From positions 151,863-215,862 of the forward strand of contig CAZAOT010000001.1 of assembly GCA_964487045.1 (NCBI GenBank): a DNA stretch of 64,000 bases, written 5' to 3'. The translations under genes and the position numbers were made by a program. Source of the DNA: an uncultured Candidatus Saccharibacteria bacterium (lineage in GTDB: Bacteria > Patescibacteriota > UBA1384 > DTJR01). Positions 4,880 to 63,321 of this stretch are shown piece by piece. The notes under the pieces were generated by a model. It made no database searches, was not told the DNA's origin, and saw only the letters and a list, made by a program, of their open reading frames with translations. Positions within the stretch are counted from its first letter, which is position 1; each line of letters starts with the position of its first letter.

Positions 4880-4950
4880 GTCAATGTCCTCCCATTTTGG
4901 GTGGTTTCTAATGCAAGATTGCATAAGGGGAAATAATATCATTTTTGTAA
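4880..4950 (-). promoter_or_regulatory. Conserved leader copy A, including the palindrome ATGCAAGATTGCAT (4911-4924)
   Basis: About 70 nt aligns with 6104-6175 (copy B): ...CCATTTTGG..TTCTAATGCAAGATTGCATAAGGGGAAATAATATCATTTT.. It contains a 6-2-6 inverted repeat ATGCAA-GA-TTGCAT. Confidence 0.45.
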
Positions 4951-5026
4951 AAAAAAAGAAAGCCACCCAGAGTGCTTGGGGCACGGAGGGTGGCTTGAAA
5001 TCAGTCGCGCAAGTGGACTTGGCCAG

Positions 5027-6103
5027 CTAGTCGGGGTGCTTGGCGAGCCACTGGTTCAGGGCTTCGAACACCTGAATCCAGGGCGAGCCTGCGAGGATAT
5101 AGACCTCGCCGGGCGTGTCGTGGTACCAGATCTTCATGCTGCCGTCAGCTTGAAGATCGCACTTCACGACAGAAGGAGCGATTTCCTCCATGATCTGGAG
5201 GGTATTCAGCACAACCGTCTTGTCGTTCAGCTGGGCCTCGACGTGATCAGACAGACCAGCTATGCGAGCTAGACTACGGATCTCGTAGTAGTCCGGATCC
5301 TCCTGGTCCGGCACCTCATTGAGGTAGTCGAGAAGCGTCTGCATCGTAGGCGCTACCGGCAAGTCGCCTGGTGCGTGCTTAATCGCCCAAAGACGGGCGA
5401 CGAGCAGAACGATGTAGTAGCGCGCCATACTGAGATTGTCCTCACGGATCTCCCAGTGCCCGAGTGGCGTCTCCAGGGAAATGTGCCCTGTCGAGATCTC
5501 GCAAGGGAAAGCGAAGCCGAGGACAAGCTCGATGGCCTTCTCGGCGCTGATGGTCGTATAGCCTTGGCAGTCGCCGTGCACGAAGTGCAGCTTGAAGGTC
5601 CCGCTCTCACAGAGGCGCAGTGCCTCGTTGATGGGGAAATTCTGTAGATCTGCCCACTTCTTGATCTCATCTAGATCGCAGGTGCGGCCAGCTAACTCGA
5701 GCATGCGCTCGAGTTCGTCACGTGATTGCGGAGGTATTTCAGTACCTTTCTGCCCTGTAGGGGCGGGGAAGATTTCGGTCGGGACTGAAATGCCCCGCCT
5801 GATGCAGATGGCGACAAGTGCGTCGCGCCATCGTCCAACCTCGAGCAATGTGCTTTCAAGCAAAATCGCACTAGGCTCCGTTGCCGGAAAACCCATGCGG
5901 TTATTGTAGAGAGCGTCGGCAAAAAGCGTTCGAATCGACCAAGCCTTCTGTTTGGAATTGGGCAGTTTGATCTCCGGGGGAAAGCCAGCCGCGATGCCTA
6001 CTTCGATGATGCGCTCCAGTTGGAACGCTCCACTTTCGCAGGCCTCGCGGCAAAGCTCAGAATACTCCTGCTCGGCTCGCGATTGTTGTTCTCTAGCATC
6101 CAT
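5027..6103 (-). CDS. hypothetical protein in a GC-rich island
   Basis: 358-aa ORF in ~57% GC DNA. The start ATG is preceded by GGAGAAAGTTGACAT, the same RBS context as the neighbouring gene. No recognisable domain. Confidence 0.55.
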   Translation of the reverse strand: MDAREQQSRAEQEYSELCREACESGAFQLERIIEVGIAAGFPPEIKLPNSKQKAWSIRTLFADALYNNRMGFPATEPSAILLESTLLEVGRWRDALVAICIRRGISVPTEIFPAPTGQKGTEIPPQSRDELERMLELAGRTCDLDEIKKWADLQNFPINEALRLCESGTFKLHFVHGDCQGYTTISAEKAIELVLGFAFPCEISTGHISLETPLGHWEIREDNLSMARYYIVLLVARLWAIKHAPGDLPVAPTMQTLLDYLNEVPDQEDPDYYEIRSLARIAGLSDHVEAQLNDKTVVLNTLQIMEEIAPSVVKCDLQADGSMKIWYHDTPGEVYILAGSPWIQVFEALNQWLAKHPD

Positions 6104-6175: not shown

Positions 6176-6286
6176 GAGGTCAAGGCGAAGAGAGGATTAT
6201 TATTGACCCCAGTACAAATCTTTTCTGGCTTATTGATTTACATTCAATCACGCCAGAAGCAGATAGTACGGGGCAGGCAACTAAGG

Positions 6287-6315
6287 TTGACGAGTTTATA
6301 AATTTGTGCTATACT
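6287..6315 (+). promoter_or_regulatory. sigma70-like promoter (TTGACG-17-TATACT) for udg
   Basis: -35 at 6287-6292, 17-nt spacer, -10 at 6310-6315, 35 nt before the TTG start of udg. Confidence 0.45.
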
Positions 6316-8856: not shown

Positions 8857-8992
8857 CTAACCTAAGATGGCCTGCCCCGCAGTTAATGCTCCACGCGATA
8901 ACAGGAAGTAATCCGTTTCGCTGGAAATTATACTGCTGGGGTCATTCCGGTTATAATCGAAGTGTAGATAGTATATAGTTCTAAAACCGAGA

Positions 8993-29241: not shown

Positions 29242-31485
29242 ATGGTAGATAACCTCGAGAGCAAAGAGTTCGTTATTAAGTTGCCCCAGCATACTAATTT
29301 TGAGATTAGAGTTTTTGCAGAATTTCTCAAAACTCTTTCTAAAATTTTCAAAAATATTCCTTTTGCAGTATCGCTTAACATGATTAATAAAAGGATATTT
29401 TTTACAGTTAAGGTTCCAGCCAGATATCAATCGGTTATGGAGAACCAGCTTTACGCGGTTTTTCCCAAGATCGAACTCGAAGAGATATCAAGAACTTTTG
29501 ATCCTCAGAACGCTGAAGTTGCGGCTCAGGCTGATCTACGACTGCGATATGGCGACCATTATCCTTTTCAGACGTTTGAGAGCTTGGAGGGGTCGTTTCT
29601 ATCTGACATCTACAACCAGTTTAACAGGCTTACTGCTCAGGAAAAATTCTTTATGCAGCTTAAGATCAAGCCTCTAGATCAAGACAAGGCAATTTTTACG
29701 CTGAAACGTTCAGTTGACTTAAATGTTAAAAACTTCAGGCAGAGGCTAAATGTCGTCGAAGGAATATTTTCCAAAAAGGCTTCTCCAGAGATTCGGGCGA
29801 GGGGAATGTCGGCTGCACAGGAGAAAAATCGCCAGCCACTTTATTTGACCGAGATTGATATCTTATTGTTTTCAGAAAGTTATGAACTAGCTGCAGCAAA
29901 GTTGGAGCCTATTGCTCAAGTTTTCCAGAAACTAGAGAGTGAGTACAACGAATTTAAATACAAAATTAGGACTGTTTCAGTTGCCGATTTTGATCGAATT
30001 ACCTCACTGGAAATTCCAGCAACTGCTTTTCATATGAGCTCAGACGAAGTATCTACGATTTATCATTTTCCACCAGACTCTGACTCGGTTCCAAACCTTT
30101 ATAAAATTCTTTCCCCTAAAGCTGAGCCACCGCTTGGACTTCCGACTGTGGATAACACATCGGCTGATGAGCTTTGTCCCTTTGCTCAAACCAACTATCG
30201 TAACATCAAGGAAAGTTTTGGTATCAAGCGCCGGGATCGACAAAGACATATGTATATCATTGGTAAGTCTGGAGTTGGTAAGTCTAAACTTCAAGAATTA
30301 ATTATCAAAAATGATATCGAAAAAGGTCATGGTATTTGCGTAATTGACCCTCACGGAGACCTGATCGAAAACATTATTCCATTTATTCCGGAAAACAGAA
30401 TTAAAGACGTAATTTTCTTTAATCCAGTTGACGAAGCTTTTCCAATTTCTTTCAACCCGATTGAAAAAGTAAACCCACTTCTTCGTCAGCAGGTTGCCAC
30501 TGGGCTTATAGAAATTTTTAAGAAAGTCTTCGGAGCGAACTGGACACCAAGGCTTGAGCACGTTCTTCGTATGACCCTGCTTGCCCTTCTCGATGCCCCA
30601 AAGGCTTCGATTATGAGCGTTCTTCTTCTTCTAACCGATAGAGAATATAGGCAGGAAGTTATTAAAAGTATTGAGGACCAAGTGGTTAAGAACTTCTGGA
30701 CAAATGAATTTGCTGGTTGGAGCGAGAAGTTCGACTCGGAAGCAATCATGCCTATCCTAAACAAAATCGGTCAATTTGTTTCAAACACTATTATTCGTAA
30801 CATTGTCGGTCAGGAAGATAATAAGATTGTAATGCCTGACATTATGGATAATCGCAAAATTTTACTTGTTAAGCTGCCAAAAGGTATTCTGGGCGAAGAG
30901 AACACTTCACTGCTTGGATCTATGATTATTACTAAGATTTATCAGGCGGCCTTGGCCAGAGCTGATGTGCCTGAGAATCAGCGTGTACCTTTCTACCTAT
31001 ATGTGGACGAGTTCCAAAATTTCGCAACTGATTCTTTTGCCAACATCCTCTCTGAAGCCCGAAAATATAAATTATCGCTTACTATGGCGCATCAATATGT
31101 CTCGCAGCTAAACGATGTAGTTAAGAAAACGGTTTTTGGTAATGTCGGATCGATTTTGTCGTTTAGAATTGGTCCGGAAGATGCACTTTTGATGGAGAAA
31201 GAATTTGAGCCGAACTTTACTGCTCAAGATATTGTAAACCTTGGTGTCCGTGAAATTTATTTGAAACTTTCCATCGACGATGAAGTAAAAGAATCATTCT
31301 CGGCAAAAACCTTGGCAGTTCCAGAGCCTACTTTCAATTTCAGGGAACAAATAGTACAATTCTCGCGTGAAAACTATTGTCGAAATAAGGAAGTAGCGGA
31401 GAAAGAATTGAAGCAAGAGAAATCAAAAGAAATGGAAGTTCTCGAAAAGCTCAAGGAAGAAAATTTCTCTGCACCGATTTTGTAA
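29242..31485 (+). CDS. soluble P-loop ATPase of the TrwB/TraD/VirD4 (type IV coupling protein, AAA10/TraG-D_C-like) superfamily; no TM segments
   Basis: MYIIGKSGVGKSKLQELI...GHGICVIDPHGDLIEN...DVIFFNPVD parallels the T4CP Walker A / 'VIDPxGD' / 'NPxD' block. Later YLYVDEFQNF is a Walker B-like motif, then LTMAHQ. The N-terminal ~330 aa is of unknown fold. Confidence 0.5.
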   Translation: MVDNLESKEFVIKLPQHTNFEIRVFAEFLKTLSKIFKNIPFAVSLNMINKRIFFTVKVPARYQSVMENQLYAVFPKIELEEISRTFDPQNAEVAAQADLRLRYGDHYPFQTFESLEGSFLSDIYNQFNRLTAQEKFFMQLKIKPLDQDKAIFTLKRSVDLNVKNFRQRLNVVEGIFSKKASPEIRARGMSAAQEKNRQPLYLTEIDILLFSESYELAAAKLEPIAQVFQKLESEYNEFKYKIRTVSVADFDRITSLEIPATAFHMSSDEVSTIYHFPPDSDSVPNLYKILSPKAEPPLGLPTVDNTSADELCPFAQTNYRNIKESFGIKRRDRQRHMYIIGKSGVGKSKLQELIIKNDIEKGHGICVIDPHGDLIENIIPFIPENRIKDVIFFNPVDEAFPISFNPIEKVNPLLRQQVATGLIEIFKKVFGANWTPRLEHVLRMTLLALLDAPKASIMSVLLLLTDREYRQEVIKSIEDQVVKNFWTNEFAGWSEKFDSEAIMPILNKIGQFVSNTIIRNIVGQEDNKIVMPDIMDNRKILLVKLPKGILGEENTSLLGSMIITKIYQAALARADVPENQRVPFYLYVDEFQNFATDSFANILSEARKYKLSLTMAHQYVSQLNDVVKKTVFGNVGSILSFRIGPEDALLMEKEFEPNFTAQDIVNLGVREIYLKLSIDDEVKESFSAKTLAVPEPTFNFREQIVQFSRENYCRNKEVAEKELKQEKSKEMEVLEKLKEENFSAPIL

Positions 31486-31502
31486 TAATATATGGAGTAT
31501 AA

Positions 31503-33224
31503 ATGGCACAAGATATAACTTGCAAACAATGTCAGGCTAGATTTGAAGCTACCGACGATGATATCGCGTTTTTGGATAAAATTTCCCCCGTGCTTGATGG
31601 AAAAAAGTATCTGATTTCTACGCCAAAACTTTGTCATGAGTGTAGGCAAATTCGCCGCTATTCATGGAGAAATGAAAGACACCTTTATAAAAGAACTTGT
31701 GATCTTACCGGCGAGCCTATTATTTCGATCTTCTCACCGGATAAGCCATTCAAGGTTTATTCAAACAAAGCTTTTCAGTCAGATGGATGGGATCCACTCG
31801 AATATGGTCGCGAATTTGATTTTAATAGGCCATTTTTTGAGCAATTTAGAGAGCTTCTGGAAGCTGTTCCACGCCAAGCCAATAGCTCAATTTTTAATGA
31901 GAATTGTGATTATTGTAATCAGGCATGGCACTCAAAAGATTCGTACATGTCCTTCAATCTAGGATATGGAGAAAGATGTTTTTACTCAAATGAATCTTTC
32001 TATGTGAAAGATTGTGTCGATACCTTTGATATCAGGCATTGTGAATTTTCTTACTCACTATACGATTGTGATAATTGCAATTCGTGTTCATTTCTTGAAA
32101 ACTGCAAAGATTGCTCAGAGAGTCATTTTTCTTATGACTCGGCTGGTTGTCAAAACATAATTCTGTCGAATGGTCTAAAAAATAAGCAATATTACATTCG
32201 AAACGAAAGTTTTTCCAAGGAAGATTACTTTGAGAAGCTGAAAGAATTAAAAATGTACACCCACTCTGGTCAAGCCGAACTTAAAAAAGAATATGAAGAG
32301 TTAAAGAAAAATGCGATTCACCGGGCAAATCATAATTTGAAGAGTGAAAATTGTACCGGTGACTACATAATCGAATCAAAAAATTGCAGGCAGTGTTTTA
32401 ATATCTTTAAGAGCGAAAACTGTGTGAGAATAGGAAATATCGATGATGCTGGTAGAGACTCAAGAGATATGAATTACACTGCCGAGATGGAACTATGCTA
32501 TGAAGGAGCTTCAATCGCTGGTTACAAAAATATCTTCGGTGTGTTTATGGCATATGGAGAAAATAATTATTACTGCAACTTCTGCGAATACTGCAAAAAT
32601 TGTTTCGGATGTGTCGGTTTGAGGCGAAAAGAGTACTGCATTTTTAATAAGCAATATACCAAAGAAGAATACGAGCAATTATTCGCTAAAATAATTGAAA
32701 AAATGCAAGAAACGGGTGAGTGGGGCGAATTTTTTCCTATCTCAATATCCCAAGTAGCTTACAACGAATCAGTCGCTCAAGATTATGCTCCAAAAACCAA
32801 AGAGGAGGTAGAAGCTATAGGCGGTTATTGGCAAGACAACTTCTACGAGAGTGAATTTACTGGGGAAACTTACGAGCCCAAGGACGATATACATGAATAC
32901 ACAAACAATGAGGAAGAGACCAAGAAGCTACTTGCTGGGGTAATTAAATGTGAGAAGTCTGGCAAACCATTTAAAATTTTGCCACAAGAATTTTTATTTT
33001 ATATCAAGAACAACATTCCAATTCCAACGGTTCATTATAGTGAAAGATTCAAGGAATTATTCAGACTGAGAAACCCACGAAAACTTTTCGAGCGACAATG
33101 CGATTGCGATCGTAATGGACATGGTCATGAAAGCCGCTGTCCGAACAAATTCGAAACGACCTATTCTCCAGATAGGGAGGAACAGGTATACTGTGAGCAG
33201 TGTTACCAAGCGAGCATTTTATAA
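31503..33224 (+). CDS. Cys-rich protein, paralog A (573 aa; N- and C-terminal zinc-ribbon-like modules, two internal C-x2-C repeat halves)
   Basis: 17 nt after the ATPase stop. About 40 Cys. N-terminal CKQC..(27)..CHEC. The motif YCNFCEYCKNCFGCVGLRRKEYCIFNKQYTKEEY. C-terminal C..C/H..C..C cluster. Confidence 0.7.
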   Translation: MAQDITCKQCQARFEATDDDIAFLDKISPVLDGKKYLISTPKLCHECRQIRRYSWRNERHLYKRTCDLTGEPIISIFSPDKPFKVYSNKAFQSDGWDPLEYGREFDFNRPFFEQFRELLEAVPRQANSSIFNENCDYCNQAWHSKDSYMSFNLGYGERCFYSNESFYVKDCVDTFDIRHCEFSYSLYDCDNCNSCSFLENCKDCSESHFSYDSAGCQNIILSNGLKNKQYYIRNESFSKEDYFEKLKELKMYTHSGQAELKKEYEELKKNAIHRANHNLKSENCTGDYIIESKNCRQCFNIFKSENCVRIGNIDDAGRDSRDMNYTAEMELCYEGASIAGYKNIFGVFMAYGENNYYCNFCEYCKNCFGCVGLRRKEYCIFNKQYTKEEYEQLFAKIIEKMQETGEWGEFFPISISQVAYNESVAQDYAPKTKEEVEAIGGYWQDNFYESEFTGETYEPKDDIHEYTNNEEETKKLLAGVIKCEKSGKPFKILPQEFLFYIKNNIPIPTVHYSERFKELFRLRNPRKLFERQCDCDRNGHGHESRCPNKFETTYSPDREEQVYCEQCYQASIL

Positions 33225-33241
33225 TATAGCTAGGAGTTGAG

Positions 33242-34960
33242 GTGGAAAACAAAACGTGTAAGCAATGCAGCGCTGATTTCGTGGTAGTGGATGAGGATCT
33301 TGAATTCTACAAAAAAATGTCCCCGACATTTAATGGAAAAGTCTATGATTTACCGGCTCCCGATTTTTGTCCTGATTGCCGAGATAGTCGAAGGTTGTCA
33401 TTTAGAAACGAGAGATCGCTTTATAACCGCAAATGTGACAAGACAGGAAAGCAAATAGTATCTATCTATTCTCCTGATAAAACCGATTATAAAGTTTTTG
33501 AAATTGCCGAGTGGTATAAGGATGACTGGGACGCCATGGAGTACGGTCGCGACTTTGACTTTAATAAACCATTTTTTGAACAATTCGATCAGTTGATGAA
33601 AGATGTCCCTAGACTTTCTTTATTCAATACAAATACCGAAAATTGCGAATATGCGAATTTTGTTGAGGGTGTTAAGAATTGCTATATGACAATGGTGACA
33701 TACTATGGCACAGAAAATTCACATTTTTGCTACAGAACCTACCGCTCAAAAGATAATTTAGACATCAATTTTGCCGAAGAACTGCAGAAGTGTTATGAGT
33801 GTGTGTTTACTACAAAGTCGTATAATTGCCGATACGGAATTAGATTAAATAATTGCCGGGATTGTGCTTTTTCAGTTGATCTAACAGGATGCAATGACTG
33901 CTTCATGTGTTCCAATCTAAGCAGGAAACAATACTGCATTAGGAATAATCAACTGACAAGAGAAGAGTATGATCGACAAATGGCCGAATACGATCTAGGA
34001 TCATTTGAAACTGTTGAAAAATTAAAAAATGAATTTGAACAATTGAGAATTGATTCGCCGGTTAAGTTTGCAAACCTGACAAACTGTGAAGACTGTATCG
34101 GTGACGATATGCATGACTGTAAAAATGTGAAGTATGGCTTTAATACTTTCGAGTCTGAGAACTGCAAATATATTATGGGCGAGAAGGCAAAGAATGTGAT
34201 GGATAGCCGAGGAGGAGGGTATGAATGGTGCTATGAATGCAACCATACTGGACTAGGGGCAAATCATATTATGTTCGCAAGCGGAGTAATCGGCGGCTAC
34301 AACATGACCTATTGCGAGACCTGCCATGGTTGCCATGATTGCTTTGGCTGTGTGGGACTTAGAAAGAAAGAATACTGCATTTTTAACAAGCAATATACTA
34401 AAGAGGAATACGAAAAAAAGGTTGCTGAAATTATTGAAAAAATGCAAGCAGATGGCGAGTGGGGACAGTTTTTCCCAAATGGTACCAGCCCCTTCGGCTA
34501 CAACGAAACAATCGGAAACAGACTTTTACCGCTAACTCGCGAAGAAGCCATTAAGCGTGGTTTTAAGTGGCAAGAAAAAGAATTTGATATTGAATTCAGT
34601 GGGGAATTTTATACTCCAGCGGATAATATAGCCGATTATGCTGATGAATCAAAACAAAAAGAACTTCTTACTGCCGTGTTAAAATGTTCAGATTCAGGCA
34701 AGCCATACAGGATAATGCCGCAAGAACTAGCTTTTTATCTAGACAATAAAATTCCTGTTCCGAGAAAGCATTTTGAAACGAGATATGGCGATCGTCTAAA
34801 ATTAGAGTTTGTTCGAAAAATTCATGATAGGCAGTGTATGTGCGAGGAGCCGGGGCATGGTCATGAGGGCAGATGTCAGGAAAAATTTGGAACAACTTAT
34901 GGACCTGATAGACCGGATAAGGTGTACTGCGAGAAGTGTTATCAAAGTATTGTTAAATAA
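33242..34960 (+). CDS. Cys-rich protein, paralog B (572 aa)
   Basis: Collinear with A and C: CKQC..CPDC, RNERSLYNRKCDKTG, YCETCHGCHDCFGCVGLRKKEYCIFNKQYTKEEY, C-terminal HGHEGRC..YCEKCYQ. Confidence 0.7.
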   Translation: MENKTCKQCSADFVVVDEDLEFYKKMSPTFNGKVYDLPAPDFCPDCRDSRRLSFRNERSLYNRKCDKTGKQIVSIYSPDKTDYKVFEIAEWYKDDWDAMEYGRDFDFNKPFFEQFDQLMKDVPRLSLFNTNTENCEYANFVEGVKNCYMTMVTYYGTENSHFCYRTYRSKDNLDINFAEELQKCYECVFTTKSYNCRYGIRLNNCRDCAFSVDLTGCNDCFMCSNLSRKQYCIRNNQLTREEYDRQMAEYDLGSFETVEKLKNEFEQLRIDSPVKFANLTNCEDCIGDDMHDCKNVKYGFNTFESENCKYIMGEKAKNVMDSRGGGYEWCYECNHTGLGANHIMFASGVIGGYNMTYCETCHGCHDCFGCVGLRKKEYCIFNKQYTKEEYEKKVAEIIEKMQADGEWGQFFPNGTSPFGYNETIGNRLLPLTREEAIKRGFKWQEKEFDIEFSGEFYTPADNIADYADESKQKELLTAVLKCSDSGKPYRIMPQELAFYLDNKIPVPRKHFETRYGDRLKLEFVRKIHDRQCMCEEPGHGHEGRCQEKFGTTYGPDRPDKVYCEKCYQSIVK

Positions 34961-34972
34961 GGGAGTTGAAAA

Positions 34973-36673
34973 ATGTCAGAGCAGAAACATTGTAAAGTAT
35001 GTGCTAAACAATTTACAGTTGAAGATGAGGACCTAGAGTTCTACAAAAAAATGTCACCGACTTTCGCGGGCGAGACCTTTGAATGGCCAGCGCCGACTCA
35101 TTGTCCCGATTGTCGAGCGGCAAGACGCCAAGTCTGGAGGAACGAAAGACATTTATATAAAAGAAAATCCGATAAATCAGGCCGAGATATCGTATCAATT
35201 TACCCACCAGAAAGAGCTGATTACAAAGTATTTGCTATCGATGAGTGGTGGGCGGATGACTGGGATGGCACGCAATATGGAATCGACTGGGATCCAAGCA
35301 AACCCTTTTTCGAGCAATTTGAGCAGCTTCTAAAGACCGTTCCTCGCCAAGCACTCTATAACACGAAGACTGAGGCTTGTGAATTCTCAAATTACATTGC
35401 CGAATGCAAGAACTGTTATATGACGACAGTCACTTTCTATAAAACAGAGAATACACATTATTCATATTTCGCCTATCAGTCAAAAGACAATGTGGACATA
35501 AGCTTCTGTAATGAATCAGAACTGGGTTATGAGCTTGTCGATGGAAATAAATGTTTTAACTGCCGATATTCCAATCGTCTAGAGAACTGTCGAAATTGCT
35601 ACTTCTCCCAAGACCTAATTGGCTGTAGCGACTGTATCTTATGTGACAATTTGCGAAACAAGCAATACTGCATTGAGAACGAGCAGTTAACTCAAGAAGA
35701 ATATCAGAAGAGATTAAGCAAAATGAACTTCGGTTCTAAGAAATTTGTTGATGAATGCCTCGCAAAGTACGAAGCGATGCGCTCAAACAGCATTGTAAAA
35801 TTTGTAAACACAGTAAAATGCGAGAACTGCCAAGGCGACAACCTGAGAGAGTGCAAGAATGTTAAGAAAAGCTTTTCTTCGCTTAGAGTTGAAAACTCGC
35901 GTTACTGCCTTGATCAGGAAGACGGCAAGAATATCTGGGATTCGGAGGGGGGCACTTATGAGTGGGCTATTGAAGTTAACCATACTGGGTTTGGACAGAC
36001 TTTCGTAGTCAACTCGAGCGTATTTTACTGTAACTTCATGTATTACTGTGAGAGCTGTTATAGCTGTCGGGACTGCTTTGGTTGTGTGGGGCTAAGGAAT
36101 AAGCAATATCATATATTTAACAAAGAGTATTCCAAAGAGGAATATGAAAAAAAGGTTGCTGAGATAATTGCCAAAATGCAAGAAACAGGTGAGTGGGGAG
36201 AGTATTTTCCATTTTCACTTTCGCCCTTTGGCTATAACGAAACCTTGGCTTATGATCATTTCCCGAAAACCAAAGAGGAAGTATTGGCGATGGGGTGTAA
36301 ATGGCAAGAGGATGATCATTCGCTTCAATATAGTGGTCCGTTTTATGAACCAGATGATGACATAAAGGTTTATCAATCAGATGAGAATAAAGCCAATGAA
36401 CTTTTGCAGGGAATCCTGAAGTGTGAAAAAAGCGGTAAGCCGTTTAAGATTATGCCTCAAGAACTGGCATTCTATCTGAAAAGCGGAATTCCAATTCCTC
36501 GCAAGCATTATGATGTCCGGTTCTATGAGAGGTTTAATGTCAGAAACCCCAAGCACTTTTATCATAGAAAATGTATGAACGAGGGATGCGGCAATGAGTT
36601 TGAAACAACTTATGCACCGGAAAGAAGCGAAAAGGTCTATTGCGAGGAGTGTTATCAGAAGAATGTTGGCTAG
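34973..36673 (+). CDS. Cys-rich protein, paralog C (566 aa)
   Basis: Collinear with A and B: CKVC..CPDC, RNERHLYKRKSDKSG, YCESCYSCRDCFGCVGLRNKQYHIFNKEYSKEEY. Confidence 0.7.
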   Translation: MSEQKHCKVCAKQFTVEDEDLEFYKKMSPTFAGETFEWPAPTHCPDCRAARRQVWRNERHLYKRKSDKSGRDIVSIYPPERADYKVFAIDEWWADDWDGTQYGIDWDPSKPFFEQFEQLLKTVPRQALYNTKTEACEFSNYIAECKNCYMTTVTFYKTENTHYSYFAYQSKDNVDISFCNESELGYELVDGNKCFNCRYSNRLENCRNCYFSQDLIGCSDCILCDNLRNKQYCIENEQLTQEEYQKRLSKMNFGSKKFVDECLAKYEAMRSNSIVKFVNTVKCENCQGDNLRECKNVKKSFSSLRVENSRYCLDQEDGKNIWDSEGGTYEWAIEVNHTGFGQTFVVNSSVFYCNFMYYCESCYSCRDCFGCVGLRNKQYHIFNKEYSKEEYEKKVAEIIAKMQETGEWGEYFPFSLSPFGYNETLAYDHFPKTKEEVLAMGCKWQEDDHSLQYSGPFYEPDDDIKVYQSDENKANELLQGILKCEKSGKPFKIMPQELAFYLKSGIPIPRKHYDVRFYERFNVRNPKHFYHRKCMNEGCGNEFETTYAPERSEKVYCEECYQKNVG

Positions 36674-36692
36674 AAAGTTCTAAAGGCTGAAA

Positions 36693-36728
36693 AACAAACG
36701 GCTCATGAGTGAGCCGTTTGTTTTTTTT
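36693..36728 (+). terminator. strong rho-independent terminator closing the ATPase/Cys-rich operon
   Basis: AAACAAACGGCTCA-tgag-TGAGCCGTTTGTTTTTTTT. Confidence 0.7.
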
Positions 36729-36808
36729 AACTTAAACTATTTATATTTAGGCAGATTTCTGCTATTCTTTTGTGATCTTTGAAATCCAGGGAAGGGACTG
36801 AGGTAACT

Positions 36809-37270
36809 ATGCCCAAGAGGAAGCAACCGAACTTTCGCAAGGCGCTTCAGCTGATGCTTAGCTACATCTTTGAGCACCAGTTGGTGGTCAATGATGTGGT
36901 GTTTATGCTCTCGACCGATGTAATGCTCAAGAATCCTCTGATCGTGCAGACGCTTGAAGAAGCAGGGTGCATTGAGCGTCTTGGTAGGCTGTCTCTCACA
37001 ACCCAGGCCAAGTTCAACAGAGCTTACCCTGGCTGCATGAGAGCAGTTCACGACAAGGCGCTCCAGAAGTTCCCGAAGATGAAGTGCCCATGGGGACATT
37101 GGATTTGGGTCGTTAATACGACCCGTTATGACCAGATGAATCCACATCTTCTGCTGTCTCGTCCGCTCCTTGAGCAAGTCGAAAGGCTCTATGGTAAGGA
37201 CACGCAGGTTAGAGCTGTTGACGAAGAAGATCGTCCGACGGACGAGAAGCCATGGCGGGCTGAGCCGTAG
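36809..37270 (+). CDS. hypothetical protein (GC-rich island)
   Basis: 153-aa ORF, ~55% GC. The RBS-like GGGAAGGGACTGAGG precedes its ATG. The antisense ORF 36737..37177 is judged spurious. Confidence 0.4.
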   Translation: MPKRKQPNFRKALQLMLSYIFEHQLVVNDVVFMLSTDVMLKNPLIVQTLEEAGCIERLGRLSLTTQAKFNRAYPGCMRAVHDKALQKFPKMKCPWGHWIWVVNTTRYDQMNPHLLLSRPLLEQVERLYGKDTQVRAVDEEDRPTDEKPWRAEP

Positions 37271-37585: not shown

Positions 37586-38194
37586 CTATTTGGCTACTTC
37601 ACTAATAGTGATCGATGCTGTCTTTGCTGTTGAGTCGGTTGAGAACAATACTTCCCAATCAACATGTGCCATTTCTGTAGTTCTGACGTTGTCAGTGTTT
37701 AGCTGCTCCTTGGTCACAAAGCCGGCTCTTTGAAGATCCTTCTGATATTTTTCATAAGCATCAGAATCAACCTGTTCAAATGTGATTGTCCAGCCCGCAG
37801 GCTCTGTGGTTGCAAGTGATCCCGTGACATTACCATAGGTAAATTTTGGTACTACACTCGGTGTGCTATCTGGCCATTTTGATGATCCAAGCTCCACACT
37901 TCCGTCCTCTCCGGTCACTTTGACAGAGTTGTCACTCGAATTTATATCAACTTTTCCGCCTGTTGCGGCTCCGATAAGACTTTCTGCACCCTTTTCAGCA
38001 ATCTTGCCAGCGAAGTATTTTGTTGCGATATAACTACCAATTCCTAGTACCGCTAAAATTATAACTATTATAATAATTGCAGTGGTGCAGCCCTTATTTC
38101 CACCACCTGAACTTTGCGATGAACTAGTGCTAGATGACGCAGCTGGTTTAGCAGGTTCTGCTTTTGGTTGCTCGGTCTTAATTTCTTCAGCCAT
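37586..38194 (-). CDS. membrane-anchored extracytoplasmic protein of unknown function
   Basis: N-terminal Ser/Ala-rich linker, a single TM (IIIIVIILAVLGIGSYIA), and a ~130-aa domain. Confidence 0.55.
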   Translation of the reverse strand: MAEEIKTEQPKAEPAKPAASSSTSSSQSSGGGNKGCTTAIIIIVIILAVLGIGSYIATKYFAGKIAEKGAESLIGAATGGKVDINSSDNSVKVTGEDGSVELGSSKWPDSTPSVVPKFTYGNVTGSLATTEPAGWTITFEQVDSDAYEKYQKDLQRAGFVTKEQLNTDNVRTTEMAHVDWEVLFSTDSTAKTASITISEVAK

Positions 38195-38316
38195 TAGGTT
38201 CCTCCTTAGACAATAATGCCTTAACTCATCTTATGAGTATTATTTTACTTTCTTATTATACCAAAAATACCATCTATTTTATTGTGCTTTGCAGGTTGAG
38301 TTAAACAGCGCAAGGC

Positions 38317-38436
38317 TTATCCACAACTTCTCAAAGTTATCCACCCCAGTATCAGTTCCTTTCTGTCATCAGAATTCACTTCTGATTGACAGAAGCAGAA
38401 TGATACGGGGCAAGCAATAAATCTTACTTATCCACA
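38317..38436 (+). promoter_or_regulatory. cluster of three DnaA boxes (TTATCCACA 38317-25, TTATCCACC 38337-45, TTATCCACA 38428-36) plus palindrome CTGTCATCAGAA-n6-TCTGATTGACAG (38364-38393)
   Basis: Two perfect and one 8/9 match to the DnaA-box consensus, all in the same orientation. An AT-rich tract with TATATAACAT x2 follows at 38500-38560. Confidence 0.4.
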
Positions 38437-38757
38437 AAGAGTGACTAGTTTTCCACAGGCAAGCGTGACCAACCCGAACAAACTTACATAACTTAACTTC
38501 GATATAGAGTAAGTTATATAACATTTTGATAATCTATATAACATATTTGACAAGTCGCACGCTTGATGGTTCTATGGATTTACATTAAATAAGTGTGAGA
38601 TGGGTAAGCGCGGTTAAATACCGTCACAGTCCCGCTACCGTAAAGTCGGAAAACCACTCATACATTCATCCCGAGGAGGAATTATGCAGCATACTTAGGT
38701 GTTTTTTAACTAGCTCAAAAGAGCTTTTTTTAGTCTCTTAAAAATATAAGGAGTAAA

Positions 38758-39111
38758 ATGAAGAAAATTAGAATTATACTTATCGCGTTATCTATCTTGG
38801 TCTTTCCAGTATTTCTAGCAGGCTGTCAGAATACAGCTAATCCTACGCTGCAAACGAGTGTTGCGCCTAGCACAGAAGTAACTTATTCTGGCGTAGAGGG
38901 TAAAACGGTTTACGAATTGCTTAAGGATTCACATCAAGTCGAGGCTGATGAGTCTTCTATGGGAGTTTTGGTCAAATCAATTGATGGCGTAAGCCAAACT
39001 GACAAGGAGTTTTGGCTATACGATATCAACGGTCAGCAGTCTAATCTTGGAGCGGACAAGCAGGCGACGAAAGATGGCGATGTTGTTCACTGGCAATTAA
39101 AAGGCTTCTAA
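38758..39111 (+). CDS. lipoprotein (signal peptide + lipobox LAGC), unknown function
   Basis: MKKIRIILIALSILVFPVFLAGCQN. Confidence 0.55.
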   Translation: MKKIRIILIALSILVFPVFLAGCQNTANPTLQTSVAPSTEVTYSGVEGKTVYELLKDSHQVEADESSMGVLVKSIDGVSQTDKEFWLYDINGQQSNLGADKQATKDGDVVHWQLKGF

Positions 39112-39113
39112 TG

Positions 39114-39141
39114 AAACAGGCCCACCCGGGCCTGTTTTTTT
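39114..39141 (+). terminator. rho-independent terminator
   Basis: AAACAGGCCC-accc-GGGCCTGTTTTTTT. Confidence 0.6.
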
Positions 39142-39180
39142 AACTTAGCAAGATCTGGTAAAATCATATGAGGAGGCCAA

Positions 39181-39744
39181 GTGAAAAAATTCAAGATTGG
39201 TTTGGTAGTTATTATAGTTTTCGCAATTTTAGCTGTAGTTACTCTAGTTTTGGTCAAAAAATATCGAGTTGAGCCCAAAAAGACCGAGCAATGCGAGACC
39301 GGGGAGGCGACTACTTGCAAGATCGATCTCAAGGACGCTGCGACTATTGAAGCTACCAAAACGACTGTTGGTAGTTTTGGCGATAAGGAAAAAATAAAAA
39401 ATAATATTTATTCAAACGAAAAGTTAAAATTTAAAATTTCTTTTCCTCAGAATTGGAGCAGTGCTCTCGTTAAGGAAACAATTCCATCAGGCAATTCCGA
39501 AGGGATGATCGAGTTTCAATTACCTACAAGTGATACGGTTTACAATGGTTATATATCGGCATTGGTGATTACGTTCTACAAGAAAGCATCGTATAACCCC
39601 ACTAATTCACTAGAAATGAAATTAGCAGAAAATACTGAGTATGTAGTTTCTTATCGTGCTTGGGAGCAGCCGCCAAGCGATAGTCCTATCACCGAGAAAG
39701 AAATTGCGACCATTGCCTCAAGCTTTGAGTTCATGAATAAGTAG
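39181..39744 (+). CDS. membrane-anchored hypothetical protein (GTG start)
   Basis: N-terminal TM, then a ~160-aa soluble domain. Confidence 0.45.
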   Translation: MKKFKIGLVVIIVFAILAVVTLVLVKKYRVEPKKTEQCETGEATTCKIDLKDAATIEATKTTVGSFGDKEKIKNNIYSNEKLKFKISFPQNWSSALVKETIPSGNSEGMIEFQLPTSDTVYNGYISALVITFYKKASYNPTNSLEMKLAENTEYVVSYRAWEQPPSDSPITEKEIATIASSFEFMNK

Positions 39745-39767
39745 CAAATTTTGGTAAAATAGAGAAA

Positions 39768-41135
39768 ATGGGGAAAGATTTTTTTGAAGATATTGTTGAG
39801 GCACCTGCTAAAGTTTTAGATAGATCAATTACTTCTTCGTCTGATTTTAAAGACAAAGTGATGGAGCAAAGGCCAATTAAGAGTGCCAAGAAGTATTGGG
39901 ATTTACTCGGCCCTGGGCTGATCACGGGGGCATCTGACGATGATCCCTCTGGAATCGCGACTTATTCTCAAACTGGCGCAAGATATGGTTTTTCTCTTCT
40001 TTGGTTGTCTATTTTTACATTTCCCTTAATGGCTATTGTTCAGGAAATGTGTGCCAGGATTGGTCTTGTGACAGGTCGGGGACTTGCTGCAAACGTAAGA
40101 AAGTATTTTCCAAAATATGTAATTTATATAGCTGCTTTATTGTTATTTGGAGCAAATACTTTCAACTTAGGAGCGGACCTTGGAATGATGGCCAGGGCTG
40201 TGCAGCTTCTATATCCCGGAATAAATTTTGTTTATTTAATTATTGGATTTACTCTACTTACCTTGTTTCTTCAAATTTTTGCGCCATACGAAAAATACGC
40301 AAAATATTTAAAATGGATGGCCTTGGTTCTACTTTCTTATATTTTCTCAGTTTTGATCATGAAGGGCGTGGACTGGGGTGAAATATTCAGTCATGCCATC
40401 CGTCCAACGATTGATTTCTCCAAGGACCAATTCATACTGATCTGCGCAATCCTCGGAACTACGATTTCACCTTATTTATTCTTCTGGCAAACTTCGCAGG
40501 AAGTTGAAGAATTAACCGAAAAGAAGGTTTCTGTCAGAAATGCTTCTGCGCCCATTACAAGAGGCCTTCTAAAGGATATGAGAGTTGATGTTTGGTCTGG
40601 CATGTTTTTATCAAACTTAGTGATGTTTTTCATAATTGTTGCTTGCGCGATCACCTTAAATAAATCAGGTTTGACTAATGTTCAGACTGCTGAAGATGCC
40701 GCTAGAGCCCTACGGCCACTTGCAGGCGATATGTCATACCTTCTTTTTGCAGTTGGCATCATTGGAACAGGCTTACTAGCTGTCCCGGTACTTTCAGGTT
40801 CAGCGGCTTATGCGATTTCTGAAAGCCTGAGCTGGAAAGAAGGACTACACAAGAAATTAAGCCACGCCTATTCATTTTATGGAGTAATGATTATCTCAAT
40901 GCTTATTGGGCTTGGATTAAACTTTGTTGGTCTTGATTCTATCAAGGCCTTAATTTATTCGGCCGTTCTTAATGGTTGCGTCGCTCCGGTCGTTTTAATT
41001 CTAATAGTGCTTCTCAGTTCCAACAAGAAAATTATGGGGGAGTATTCTAACTCTATTGTCATTAGAATAATCGGTTGGATCACAATAGCAATAATGCTAA
41101 TTGCCGCTGGAGCAACGATTTACTCTATTATTTAG
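39768..41135 (+). CDS. mntH: NRAMP-family divalent metal (Mn2+/Fe2+) transporter
   Basis: GPGLITGASDDDPSGIATYSQTGARYGFSLLW and MPH-like motifs. About 11 TM helices. Confidence 0.85.
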   Translation: MGKDFFEDIVEAPAKVLDRSITSSSDFKDKVMEQRPIKSAKKYWDLLGPGLITGASDDDPSGIATYSQTGARYGFSLLWLSIFTFPLMAIVQEMCARIGLVTGRGLAANVRKYFPKYVIYIAALLLFGANTFNLGADLGMMARAVQLLYPGINFVYLIIGFTLLTLFLQIFAPYEKYAKYLKWMALVLLSYIFSVLIMKGVDWGEIFSHAIRPTIDFSKDQFILICAILGTTISPYLFFWQTSQEVEELTEKKVSVRNASAPITRGLLKDMRVDVWSGMFLSNLVMFFIIVACAITLNKSGLTNVQTAEDAARALRPLAGDMSYLLFAVGIIGTGLLAVPVLSGSAAYAISESLSWKEGLHKKLSHAYSFYGVMIISMLIGLGLNFVGLDSIKALIYSAVLNGCVAPVVLILIVLLSSNKKIMGEYSNSIVIRIIGWITIAIMLIAAGATIYSII

Positions 41136-44931: not shown

Positions 44932-45639
44932 ATGAGTAGACGAGAAATTGCAAGTTATCTAAGAAAGTTCAGAGAGAGGTCAGAAATCACACAAGGTGAT
45001 CTGGCTGATATGCTTGGTATTTCACGCCAATCAGTTATCTCTCTTGAGAGTGGGCGTTGTGTGCCCTCAGTTGCCTTAGCTATTAAGGTATCAAGACTAT
45101 TTGAAATGCCTGTTGAGTTTATCTTTAGAGAATCAAGCGAGATTGAAGAAAATGAAAATAAAGAAACTAAAACGCCGGAAGGCAACGGAGGTATTATGAA
45201 TAGAGATTTAATGCCTTGGTCTCCTCTTCGAGAGATTATGTCGATGAGAGAGACAATGGACAGGTTCTTTGACGAACCAAGCAGTAGATCGACAGCTTTG
45301 TTTCATCCTGCGGTGGGTATCAGAGAATCAGAAAAAGAGTTGGTAATTGAAGCAGATATTCCTGGAGTTAAGGAAGATGATCTCGATGTAGAAATTGAAA
45401 ACGATAAAGTTGTTATCAAGGGTGAGAGAAGGCACCGTGAAGAAACTAAGAAGGAAGATTATTATCATCTAGAGAGTTCATATGGATCATTCTCAAGAAT
45501 GGTATCGCTTCCAAGCTATGTTGACTCTTCCAAGGCTGAAGCAGAATTCAAGGATGGTGTCTTAGAGATCAAAATTCCTAAGGTTACTGAGAAGCAGTCC
45601 AAGAAACTAACAATTAAGAAAAAGGCAGAAGCAAAGTAA
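44932..45639 (+). CDS. fusion protein: N-terminal XRE-family HTH DNA-binding domain + C-terminal Hsp20/alpha-crystallin small heat-shock domain
   Basis: N: ITQGDLADMLGISRQSVISLESGRCVPSVALAIKVSRLF. C: DIPGVKEDDLDVEIENDKVVIKGERRH...FSRMVSLPSYVDSSKAEAEFKDGVLEIKIPK. Confidence 0.75.
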   Translation: MSRREIASYLRKFRERSEITQGDLADMLGISRQSVISLESGRCVPSVALAIKVSRLFEMPVEFIFRESSEIEENENKETKTPEGNGGIMNRDLMPWSPLREIMSMRETMDRFFDEPSSRSTALFHPAVGIRESEKELVIEADIPGVKEDDLDVEIENDKVVIKGERRHREETKKEDYYHLESSYGSFSRMVSLPSYVDSSKAEAEFKDGVLEIKIPKVTEKQSKKLTIKKKAEAK

Positions 45640-47217: not shown

Positions 47218-47292
47218 CGGCCTGTAGCTCATTGGTAGAGCGACGCTCTTATAAGGCGTATGTAGATGGTTCGATCCCATCCAGGCCGACCA
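47218..47292 (+). tRNA. tRNA-Ile (anticodon UAU as encoded), CCA encoded
   Basis: CGGCCTG / CAGGCCG acceptor, anticodon stem ACGCT/GGCGT (one G.U), loop CTTATAA, T-arm GATGG-TTCGATC-CCATC. Confidence 0.75.
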
Positions 47293-63019: not shown

Positions 63020-63060
63020 GGTAGTGTAGCTCAGTTGGTTAGAGCGAAGGAATCACCCCG
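63020..63060 (+). pseudogene. tRNA 5'-half fragment (duplicate of the first ~36 nt of the downstream CAU tRNA)
   Basis: GGTAGTGTAGCTCAGTTGGTTAGAGCGAAGGAATCA matches the downstream GGTAGCATAGCTCAGTGGTAGAGCGAAGGAATCA. There is no T-arm or acceptor 3' strand. Confidence 0.45.
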
Positions 63061-63071
63061 TTAATTAATAT

Positions 63072-63146
63072 GGTAGCATAGCTCAGTGGTAGAGCGAAGG
63101 AATCATAACCCTTAGGTCGGAGGTTCGAGCCCTCCTGCTACCACCA
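63072..63146 (+). tRNA. tRNA with CAU anticodon (elongator Met or lysidine-Ile2), CCA encoded
   Basis: GGTAGCA/TGCTACC acceptor, loop ATCATAA, T-arm GGAGG-TTCGAGC-CCTCC. Flanked by the inverted repeats CCCCGTTAATTA (63057-68) and TAATTAACGGGG (63152-63). Confidence 0.85.
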
Positions 63147-63321
63147 TAATATAATTAACGGGGCAAGTAACCCTTGGTCACAGGCATGTCCCGTAGAAAC
63201 CGCTTCTGTAATAACACTATGTAATAGGTTTTACAGAAAGGAGTTCTACTGGGATTCGAATCATATGGAACTAGTTCGTTAATCGAACTATAAATTAATA
63301 TTTAAGGTTAATTCTTACATC

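What the first reader, a model, noticed from the sequence alone, without database searches (positions are those of the whole stretch)
38300..38560. Three same-orientation DnaA boxes plus a perfect palindrome and an AT-rich repeat tract in a 560-nt intergenic region where gene orientation diverges
TTATCCACA (38317), TTATCCACC (38337) and TTATCCACA (38428) match the DnaA-box consensus TTATNCACA 9/9, 8/9, 9/9. Between them lies CTGTCATCAGAA-ttcact-TCTGATTGACAG. Downstream (38500-38560) is AT-rich with a TATATAACAT direct repeat. The flanking genes diverge (minus-strand gene ending at 38194, plus-strand genes from 38758). This is the signature of either a replication origin (DnaA-box cluster + DNA-unwinding element) or a DnaA-titrated promoter. 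No dnaA/dnaN is in the window, so oriC assignment is tentative.
Basis: partly seen in the sequence, partly recalled or inferred. Interest (0 to 1): 0.55.

Follow-up and report, generated by a model that had tools for sequence, protein, structure and literature searches.

The report
DnaA-box promoter module split by hairpin
This is not a replication origin but the control region of a vitamin-B12-riboswitch uptake operon in a Saccharibacteria chromosome, where a conserved pair of DnaA-type binding sites has been split and duplicated by a copy of a widespread, apparently undescribed hairpin repeat.

Summary
The boxes are real. There are four, not three (38317, 38337, 38428, 38449), all on the + strand within 141 bp; 0 of 300 simulated windows reached four. 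The origin reading fails. GC skew is +0.081 left and +0.086 right of the site, cumulative skew rises across all 64 kb, 78% and 88% of coding bases lie on + on the two sides, and there are no DnaA-trios and no dnaA or dnaN.

The intergenic region holds an AdoCbl riboswitch (38592-38664) with its own promoter and terminator, in front of DUF4430, a 187-aa gene and NRAMP.

Eight related species share a rigid module upstream: a TTATCCNCA / TTATCCACA pair with 20-bp spacing (or one perfect box), then CCCGAACAAA, then three or four TTAYATAAC palindromes. So the 'AT-rich repeat' is a set of operator-like palindromes.

The 'perfect palindrome' is the imperfect apex of a 67-nt hairpin. That hairpin family has four copies in the window and at least 120 metagenome contigs, with strong covariation and no Rfam match. 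Five related species lack it at this locus. Here it is flanked by a TTATCCAC direct repeat, which explains the extra boxes.

DnaA binding, acting as transcription control or titration, is the most likely function but is untested.

The parts
37586..38194 (-). Divergent 202-aa gene. The product has an N-terminal low-complexity region and one hydrophobic segment, and no Pfam family. It is absent from the locus in L007 and L211.
38255..38263 (-). Extended -10 promoter element TGGTATAAT of the 202-aa gene. L207 and L210 have the same sequence; L214 and L219 have TGATATAAT.
   Evidence: read from the sequence; inferred, no transcript data
38317..38325 (+). Box 1, TTATCCACA (9/9). With box 2 it forms an extra pair that has no counterpart in the five hairpin-less species.
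38337..38345 (+). Box 2, TTATCCACC (8/9). Its last two bases are the first bases of the hairpin stem. TTATCCAC here is the 5' copy of the direct repeat that flanks the hairpin element.
38344..38427 (+). Copy of hairpin repeat family 'E'. It consists of a 67-nt imperfect hairpin (38344-38410: CCCCAGTA ... TACGGGG), the conserved 3' extension CAAGCAA, and an A/T-rich tail that runs up to the second TTATCCAC.
   Evidence: (covariance model, 94.4 bits)
38428..38436 (+). Box 3, TTATCCACA (9/9). It is the ortholog of the distal box of the conserved pair (TTATCCCCA, ATATCCACA or TTATCCACA elsewhere) and the 3' copy of the flanking direct repeat.
38449..38457 (+). Box 4, TTTTCCACA (8/9). It is the ortholog of the proximal box, which is AGTTATCCACA in the seven other species.
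38473..38482 (+). Conserved block CCCGAACAAA, 15-16 nt after the proximal box in all eight species. Function unknown.
38483..38544 (+). Three operator-like palindromes: TTACATAAC at 38484, TTATATAAC at 38514 (core of AAGTTATATAAC) and CTATATAAC at 38534. The middle copy, GTTATATAAC, is invariant in eight species.
38547..38575 (+). Sigma-70-type promoter of the riboswitch operon: TTGACA, 17 nt with TG at the extended -10 position, then TTCTAT. TTTGACA and TG are invariant in eight species.
   Evidence: read; inferred, not found by the strict scan
38592..38664 (+). AdoCbl-II (cobalamin) riboswitch aptamer.
   Evidence: (40.7 bits, gathering score 36.5); L007 has a Cobalamin riboswitch at the same place
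38712..38732 (+). Intrinsic terminator-like stem-loop with a T run, placed between the aptamer and the ribosome-binding site. It is the likely expression platform.
38758..41135 (+). Riboswitch-controlled operon: DUF4430 protein (38758-39111), 187-aa protein (39181-39744) and NRAMP-family transporter (39768-41135).
6199..6287 (+). Second copy of hairpin family E (92.2 bits), also in a divergent intergenic region, just before a TTGACG-17-TATACT promoter.
8862..8948 (-). Third copy of hairpin family E (36.5 bits), 5 nt after the RNase J stop codon.
63176..63262 (-). Fourth copy of hairpin family E (36.8 bits), 30 nt after tRNA-Met.

Best explanation
The region is the shared control region of two divergent transcription units in a Saccharibacteria (Patescibacteria) chromosome. 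It is not an origin. Its ancestral core is a rigid module of about 110 bp that sits upstream of the promoter of a cobalamin-riboswitch operon (DUF4430, a 187-aa protein and NRAMP). The module holds two same-orientation DnaA-type boxes 20 bp apart, a strong proximal TTATCCACA and a weaker distal TTATCCNCA. These are followed by CCCGAACAAA and by three or four copies of the palindrome TTAYATAAC. In this genome a copy of a dispersed hairpin repeat (family E: CCCCAGTA, a variable stem-loop, then TACGGGGCARGCA and an A/T-rich tail) lies directly after a TTATCCAC. It is flanked by a TTATCCAC direct repeat, so the locus now shows four boxes and a 'palindrome'. What is shown: the anatomy, the conservation across species, the family membership of the hairpin, and the absence of origin signatures. 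What is inferred: the replication initiator DnaA binds the boxes, strongly at the proximal site and cooperatively at the distal one, and acts as a transcription factor and/or is titrated there, as at DnaA-box promoters and clusters in Bacillus subtilis and E. coli; and an unidentified dimeric regulator binds the palindromes.
For: Four boxes within 141 bp on the same strand; 0 of 300 simulations reached four. The source is a chromosome of a Saccharibacteria relative (housekeeping genes; NRAMP relatives). Riboswitch, promoter and terminator. In an eight-species alignment, AGTT.TCCACA, CCG.ACA, GTTATATAAC, TTTGACA and TG are invariant, although neighbouring proteins are only 45-72% identical. The proximal box lies 15-16 nt from CCCGAACAAA in all eight species. 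In a 53-sequence alignment, 91.4% of cells are paired against 64% in shuffles and about 40% in slid controls, with 305 cells changed on both sides. The hairpin is absent from the orthologous site in L207, L210, L214, L217 and L219 and present in L211/L212 and L007. Flanking direct repeats of 7 nt or more occur in 13 of 59 solo copies, against 3 and 0 in position-shifted controls. Against an origin: skew and strand bias, no DnaA-trios, no dnaA.
Against: No binding or expression data exist, and no DnaA sequence or authentic oriC of this lineage could be examined, so the assignment to DnaA rests on identity to the universal consensus. The module lies at a variable distance from both promoters: 98-148 bp from the proximal box to the -35, and 11 to about 98 nt from the distal box to the divergent -10. 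That is unusual for a classical operator. By the B. subtilis criterion for stable DnaA binding (A above 0.3; PMC2533591) the four boxes give A of about 0.23, and the ancestral one- or two-box state would score lower. Whether box 1 arose by duplication or is an older third box is unresolved. The direct-repeat evidence for insertion is statistical, seen in only about a fifth of copies.
Confidence: 0.5

Rival explanations
1. The TTATCCNCA-N11-TTATCCACA direct repeats are bound by a dedicated regulator of the B12/metal uptake operon, not by DnaA. A response-regulator-type protein that recognises direct repeats is one possibility. The match to the DnaA consensus would then be coincidental.
For: The boxes keep fixed spacing to the other conserved blocks of one module tied to this operon. 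The distal box is TTATCCCCA in three species, a poor DnaA box. The module was found in only eight close relatives, and one more distant locus with a similar riboswitch core has none of it. The boxes fail the B. subtilis cluster criterion (formula; A about 0.23).
Against: The proximal site is exactly the 9-mer of highest DnaA affinity in seven of eight species, which is unlikely by coincidence for an unrelated factor. These reduced genomes encode few regulators (own knowledge). No candidate regulator was identified next to the locus.
Confidence: 0.3
2. The site is a DnaA-regulatory or titration locus of the datA, DARS or B. subtilis DBC type. It would tune initiator availability and have little role in transcription of the neighbouring genes.
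For: The module is a rigid unit whose distance to both promoters varies by tens of bp. That fits an autonomous nucleoprotein site better than an operator. It combines same-orientation boxes with an A/T-rich, protein-binding-like tract, as datA and DARS2 combine boxes with IHF or Fis sites (PMC4585315, listed; own knowledge).
Against: There are only one or two boxes in most species. A is about 0.23 even with four boxes (formula). The module is always linked to the same operon promoter.
Confidence: 0.12
3. The site is a chromosomal replication origin (oriC), or a secondary or plasmid-derived origin: a DnaA-box cluster plus an A/T-rich unwinding element with iteron-like repeats.
For: Four boxes lie next to a 68-bp tract of 81% A+T with repeats at 20-30-bp spacing. 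A VirD4/TraD-like ATPase gene lies 7 kb upstream.
Against: GC skew is +0.081 and +0.086 on the two sides, and cumulative skew is monotonic across 64 kb. There is no switch in gene orientation. There are no DnaA-trios and no dnaA, dnaN or rep gene. The repeats are palindromes conserved next to a promoter. Most related species have only one or two boxes. Gene order with housekeeping neighbours is conserved.
Confidence: 0.04

Closest known systems
DnaA-box promoters and non-origin DnaA-box clusters (B. subtilis DBCs, PMC2533591 and PMC3245932; DnaA as a transcription factor, PMC4447404)
   Same: Consensus and near-consensus DnaA boxes lie in an intergenic region between divergent genes, away from oriC. 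A strong box is paired with a weaker neighbour.
   Different: There are fewer boxes: one or two ancestrally, four here. The score is below the B. subtilis threshold for stable binding. The organism is a Patescibacterium in which DnaA regulation has not been studied. The boxes are embedded in a larger module with palindromes and a B12 riboswitch.
E. coli datA, DARS1 and DARS2 (PMC4585315)
   Same: A small cluster of same-locus DnaA boxes is combined with an adjacent A/T-rich tract that looks like a protein-binding site. It is non-coding and conserved in position.
   Different: There is no evidence for IHF or Fis sites or for an effect on the nucleotide state of DnaA. The box arrangement differs. 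The module is tied to one operon promoter.
Bacterial oriC
   Same: A DnaA-box cluster lies next to an A/T-rich tract.
   Different: There is no skew or gene-orientation switch, no DnaA-trios and no dnaA or dnaN linkage. The A/T-rich tract consists of conserved palindromes at a promoter.
REP/REPIN elements mobilised by RAYT (PMC3116915, PMC3337134) and bacterial MITEs
   Same: Hairpin family E consists of short, non-coding, intergenic, multi-copy imperfect palindromes. The bases of the stem are conserved and the interiors vary. Copies occur singly and in tandem, in either orientation.
   Different: The base sequence CCCCAGTA/TACGGGGCARGC is conserved across contigs of 30-65% GC rather than within one genus. 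There is an asymmetric conserved 3' extension and a variable tail. Flanking direct repeats of 7-13 nt occur in about a fifth of copies, whereas REP and IS200-type elements make none. There is no terminal inverted repeat at the 3' end and no consistently linked transposase.
Cobalamin riboswitch-controlled B12 uptake operons
   Same: An AdoCbl-II aptamer and a terminator lie upstream of a DUF4430 gene.
   Different: The operon also contains an NRAMP-family transporter, and it carries the upstream module of boxes and palindromes.

Membership tests
Chromosomal replication origin (oriC) | Cluster of DnaA boxes | tested here: met
   Four boxes with at most one mismatch within 141 bp, all on the + strand; 0 of 300 simulations reached four.
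Chromosomal replication origin (oriC) | GC-skew sign change or cumulative skew minimum at the site | tested here: not met
   Skew is +0.081 on the left and +0.086 on the right. The cumulative minimum is at position 100 and the maximum at 63100.
Chromosomal replication origin (oriC) | Gene orientation diverges from the origin on a replichore scale | tested here: not met
   78% of coding bases on the left and 88% on the right are on the + strand. Only the single 202-aa gene diverges.
Chromosomal replication origin (oriC) | DNA unwinding element with DnaA-trios next to a box | tested here: not met
   No run of three or more [T/A]A[G/A] trios on either strand near the boxes. The A/T-rich tract is made of conserved palindromes.
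Chromosomal replication origin (oriC) | Linkage to dnaA/dnaN (usual, not universal) | tested here: not met
   No such domains in the ORFs scanned against Pfam. tblastn with a DnaA consensus found nothing.
Chromosomal replication origin (oriC) | Supports initiation (autonomous replication, marker-frequency peak) | not testable with these tools
   Needs read coverage or an experiment.
Non-origin DnaA-box cluster (B. subtilis DBC type) | Box density and affinity score A above 0.3 over four successive boxes (PMC2533591) | tested here: not met
   Affinities 4+1+4+1 = 10 and mean spacing 44 bp give A of about 0.23 (positions, formula).
Non-origin DnaA-box cluster (B. subtilis DBC type) | DnaA occupancy in vivo or in vitro | not testable with these tools
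   No ChIP or binding data.
DnaA-regulated promoter | Consensus box conserved in the promoter region across species | tested here: met
   The proximal box is TTATCCACA in seven of eight species, and AGTT.TCCACA is invariant.
DnaA-regulated promoter | Fixed position of the box relative to promoter elements | tested here: inconclusive
   The proximal box lies 98-148 bp from the -35, and the distance to the divergent -10 varies from 11 to about 98 nt. The position is fixed only relative to the palindrome module.
DnaA-regulated promoter | Transcription responds to DnaA | not testable with these tools
   Needs an experiment.
Cobalamin riboswitch | Match to the Rfam covariance model above the gathering score, upstream of a B12-related gene | tested here: met
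   RF01689 at 40.7 bits against 36.5. RF00174 at 49.9 bits in L007. A DUF4430 gene lies downstream.
REP/REPIN-RAYT system (for the hairpin) | Multi-copy intergenic imperfect palindromes | tested here: met
   Four copies in 64 kb. Tandem copies in metagenome contigs. Placement relative to genes is independent of orientation.
REP/REPIN-RAYT system (for the hairpin) | Linked RAYT (Y1 transposase) gene flanked by the same repeats | tested here: inconclusive
   A Y1_Tnp gene lies 18 nt from a hairpin in L107, L087 and L144. Homologs elsewhere are bracketed by different hairpins. None is in the window.
REP/REPIN-RAYT system (for the hairpin) | Insertion without target-site duplication | tested here: not met
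   13 of 59 solo copies have flanking direct repeats of 7 nt or more, against 3 and 0 in the controls.
MITE (for the hairpin) | Terminal inverted repeats at both ends, flanked by a target-site duplication | tested here: inconclusive
   Direct repeats are present in about 22% of copies. However, they enclose the hairpin plus a non-conserved 13-52-nt tail, so the 3' terminus has no inverted repeat.
Known structured RNA (Rfam 15) | Match to any family model | tested here: not met
   No match at gathering score in the window or in 20 carrier loci. Only chance-level matches at an E-value cut-off of 10.
TIGR array (TIGR-Tas) | Alternating 8-12-nt edge and loop repeats with 9-nt spacers next to a Nop-domain gene | tested here: not met
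   The architecture described in PMC12045711 does not fit solitary 50-110-nt hairpins.

The most novel reading that the evidence does not exclude
Hairpin family E is a previously undescribed kind of mobile element of Patescibacteria. It is a 50-110-nt stem-loop with an almost invariant base (CCCCAGTA / TACGGGGCARGC) across contigs of 30-65% GC. It has an asymmetric 3' extension and a variable A/T-rich tail. It inserts after T-Y-C-A-C-like targets and leaves direct repeats of variable length (7-13 nt). These features fit neither REP/RAYT nor classical MITEs. At this locus it has landed in DnaA boxes, possibly in two lineages independently, and has remodelled a DnaA-controlled promoter.
Probability: 0.25. 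Interest if true: 0.65.

Novelty: new variant of a known kind. Interest (0 to 1): 0.42.

Why it matters
For the finding as posed, the result is a correction. A cluster of DnaA boxes next to an A/T-rich tract is not enough to call an origin. Here the cluster is partly the by-product of a repeat insertion, and the 'unwinding element' is a set of operator-like palindromes in front of a riboswitch promoter.

Two things remain of interest. First, a consensus DnaA box is conserved in eight Saccharibacteria-related species in front of a B12/metal uptake operon. This is a concrete, testable case of the initiator acting, or being titrated, outside the origin in a phylum where nothing is known about replication control. 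Second, the hairpin is a well-supported, widespread structured repeat with no Rfam family, and none of my searches of the paper library found it described. It would affect the annotation of Patescibacteria genomes (promoters, terminators, origin predictions), and its mode of spread is open.

Tried and rejected
- **oriC:** rejected on skew, strand bias, absence of DnaA-trios and absence of dnaA.
- **Known RNA family for the hairpin or the region:** none in Rfam.
- **TIGR array:** the architecture does not fit.
- **Integron attC, LexA (Cheo) box and NrdR box:** compared from memory with the hairpin and the palindromes. The motifs and spacing do not match. These were not formally tested.
- **Hairpin as terminator or 5'-UTR element:** placement relative to gene starts and stops shows no orientation preference, and canonical terminators exist in this genome.
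- **General link between the hairpin and DnaA boxes:** none. Boxes occur at 0.21 per kb near hairpins against 0.35 per kb overall, and the 5' flank shows only a weak T-Y-C-A preference.
- **A protein consistently linked to the hairpin:** none. The largest neighbouring cluster is LepA in 7 of 121 loci. Y1 transposase homologs are mostly flanked by other hairpins.
- **The module in more distant relatives:** no DnaA-box cluster in 79 NRAMP loci of other Patescibacteria, and none of the module at the one locus among them with a similar riboswitch core.
- **dnaA in any fetched locus,** to inspect an authentic origin of this lineage: none found.
- **Identity of the 153-aa and 202-aa neighbours:** no NCBIfam or PDB relatives.
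- **Literature searches** for the motif sequence and for REP or MITE elements in Patescibacteria or Saccharibacteria: nothing relevant.

Full report
**What is in the sequence**

A fourth one-mismatch box, TTTTCCACA, lies at 38449. All four are on the + strand. In the whole window there are 25 boxes with at most one mismatch, against 14.6 expected. Four same-strand boxes within 150 bp never occurred in 300 first-order Markov simulations; the largest simulated cluster was three, seen once.

The flanking genes do diverge (minus start at 38194, plus start at 38758). The tract 38480-38547 is 81% A+T against 59% for the window. The 'perfect palindrome' is not perfect. Its arms pair with one bulged T, and they are the tip of a 67-nt imperfect hairpin at 38344-38410.

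It is followed by a terminator-like stem with a T run at 38712-38732 and then by the ribosome-binding site of a DUF4430 gene.

**Genomic setting**

The window is chromosomal. It carries S15, PNPase, RNase J, FtsK, RecA, RecX, pyruvate kinase, DnaG, RpoD and a type IV pilus cluster. The closest relatives of its NRAMP gene in species-representative genomes are almost all Saccharibacteria or other Patescibacteria MAGs. Neither Pfam scans of the ORFs submitted nor a tblastn search with a DnaA consensus found dnaA or dnaN.

**Why it is not an origin**

- GC skew is +0.081 for positions 1-38299 and +0.086 for 38561-64000.
- The cumulative G-C count has its minimum at position 100 and its maximum at 63100, so nothing turns at 38.3 kb.
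- 78% of coding bases to the left and 88% to the right are on the + strand. The local divergence is due to a single 202-aa gene.
- No run of three or more DnaA-trio triplets lies near the boxes on either strand.

**The conserved module**

I recovered the orthologous locus from seven other species, using homologs of the DUF4430 and 202-aa proteins and the NRAMP scan: L007, L207, L210, L211/L212, L214, L217 and L219. The neighbouring proteins are only 45-72% identical to those of the window. Even so, the alignment of the region upstream of the riboswitch shows sharp conserved blocks:

- AGTT.TCCACA (the proximal box);
- CCG.ACA, 15-16 nt downstream of it;
- TTA..TA;
- GTTATATAAC.TT;
- TA.AT.AC;
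- TTTGACA (the -35 element);
- TG at the extended -10 position.

The proximal box is a perfect TTATCCACA in seven species and TTTTCCACA in the window. In six species a distal box lies 20-21 bp upstream: TTATCCCCA in three, TTATCCACA in two and ATATCCACA in one.

The module is rigid inside but sits at a variable distance from the promoters. The proximal box lies 98-148 bp from the -35, because of insertions between the last palindrome and the -35. The distal box lies 11 to about 98 nt from the conserved extended -10 of the divergent gene (TGGTATAAT or TGATATAAT).

**The palindrome is a copy of a dispersed hairpin family**

The motif TACGGGGCA recurs at 6267. The sequence 6199-6287 folds into the same kind of hairpin (z-score -4.9). 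It has the same base (ACCCCAGTA ... TACGGGGCARGCAA) and compensatory changes in the apex.

A covariance model built from three copies found four copies in the window: 6199-6287 (+), 8862-8948 (-), 38336-38423 (+) and 63176-63262 (-). It also found copies in L007 and L053.

Only one viral contig matched. In an alignment of 53 model matches:

- 91.4% of pair cells are standard pairs, against 64% in column shuffles and about 40% when partners are slid.
- 305 cells are changed on both sides.
- All 14 pairs of the upper helix covary. The alignment is fitted to the model, so it leans towards the structure.
- G-U pairs outnumber A-C by 45 to 15 on the strand as defined.

No Rfam family matches, and the architecture is not that of TIGR arrays. 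Copies lie in intergenic DNA in either orientation relative to gene starts and stops. Some are in tandem, with a TACGGGGCAGGCCCCAGTA junction. No protein family is consistently adjacent. An IS200-like Y1 transposase lies 18 nt from one hairpin, but its homologs elsewhere are bracketed by different short hairpins.

Of 59 solitary, non-redundant copies, 13 have a direct repeat of 7-13 nt between the 5' junction and a point 13-52 nt after the hairpin. The position-shifted controls gave 3 and 0. That pattern suggests insertion with a target duplication.

**How the two parts fit at this locus**

With filters off, the model finds no hairpin at the orthologous site in L207, L210, L214, L217 or L219. 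It does find one in L211/L212 (E = 1.7e-11), and L007 has one as well.

In the window the element begins inside box 2 (TTATCCAC|CCCAGTA). It ends, after a 17-nt tail, at box 3. It is therefore flanked by the direct repeat TTATCCAC (38337-38344 and 38428-38435). In L211 and L007 the hairpin lies after AGTTATYCAC and is followed, after a tail, by AGTTATCCAC.

Boxes 3 and 4 are the orthologs of the conserved pair. Box 2 is most simply the duplicated copy of box 3. Box 1 is either an older third box or part of a longer duplication; I could not resolve this. DnaA boxes are not generally enriched near hairpins (0.21 against 0.35 per kb). The 5' flank of the family shows only a weak T-Y-C-A preference, which TTATCCA happens to satisfy.

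**Most likely function**

The steps shown are the anatomy, the conservation and the absence of origin signatures.

The inferred step is that DnaA binds the boxes. This rests on exact identity to the highest-affinity DnaA box in seven of eight species, on the paired arrangement of a strong and a weaker box, and on precedent. DnaA forms stable complexes at intergenic box clusters in B. subtilis and acts there as a transcription factor and as a titrated species (PMC2533591, PMC3245932, PMC4447404). By the B. subtilis affinity-over-spacing score the four boxes give about 0.23, below the 0.3 threshold (formula read). A stable multi-DnaA complex is therefore not assured.

The palindromes probably bind a separate dimeric regulator, and I found no candidate for it. 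One speculative rationale is that the module couples initiator status to cobalamin supply for a B12-dependent ribonucleotide reductase. I found no data on this.

**Rival explanations**

- A non-DnaA regulator recognises the direct repeats (0.30).
- The site is a datA/DARS/DBC-like titration site with little transcriptional role (0.12).
- The site is an origin (0.04).

**Verdict**

The origin interpretation is not supported, and the alternative of a promoter with DnaA boxes is supported by comparison across species. The cluster is inflated by an inserted repeat.

The finding as posed is a new member of a known kind. The hairpin family is the more unusual item: it is well supported as a structure, widespread, and unassigned to any known family.

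Noticed in passing
window 6199-6287 (+), 8862-8948 (-), 63176-63262 (-); orphan ACGGGGCAAG at 63158-63167: Three further copies of the hairpin family with the base CCCCAGTA / TACGGGGCARGC. One lies 5 nt after the RNase J stop codon and one lies 30 nt after a tRNA-Met. The family has at least 120 metagenome contigs and no Rfam match.
   Followed up: partly
metagenome loci L120, L121, L125, L151/L177, L158, L174 and others: Direct repeats of 7-13 nt flank the hairpin plus a non-conserved 13-52-nt tail (13 of 59 solo copies, against 3 and 0 in controls). This resembles a target-site duplication and fits neither REP/RAYT nor classical MITE ends.
   Followed up: partly
window 29242-37270: A VirD4/TraD-like coupling ATPase (747 aa) is followed by three paralogous proteins of about 570 aa with no Pfam family and by a 153-aa ORF. 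The same gene order is seen in L007, L207 and L211. The function of this conserved cluster is unknown.
   Followed up: no
window 47218-47292: tRNA-Ile with anticodon UAU, which is unusual for bacteria; they normally decode AUA with a lysidine-modified CAU tRNA.
   Followed up: no
window 3168-6103: A block of 49-55% GC in a roughly 40% GC window. It carries three minus-strand ORFs (355, 258 and 358 aa) with no Pfam match and may have been acquired horizontally.
   Followed up: no
window 63026-63160: A truncated copy of the 5' part of tRNA-Met lies just upstream of the intact tRNA-Met (63072-63146). The intact gene is bracketed by the inverted repeat CCCCGTTAATTAA / TTAATTAACGGGG.
   Followed up: no
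window 44932-45639: A single ORF that fuses an HTH_3 DNA-binding domain to an HSP20 (alpha-crystallin) domain.
   Followed up: no
L087 545-1222, L103 6331-7113, L134 2476-3264, L051 3183-3686: IS200-like Y1 transposase genes, each bracketed on both sides by its own short GC-rich hairpin. The hairpin differs from locus to locus, as in RAYT/REP arrangements.
   Followed up: partly
L211 3645-3700: A tandem 24-nt direct repeat, CCTTCGACTCCGCTCAGGACAAGT, is inserted between the last palindrome and the -35 of the riboswitch promoter. It moves the conserved module about 50 bp further from the promoter.
   Followed up: no
window 38473-38482 and orthologs: CCCGAACAAA is conserved in eight species at 15-16 nt from the proximal box. 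No factor or function could be assigned to it.
   Followed up: partly
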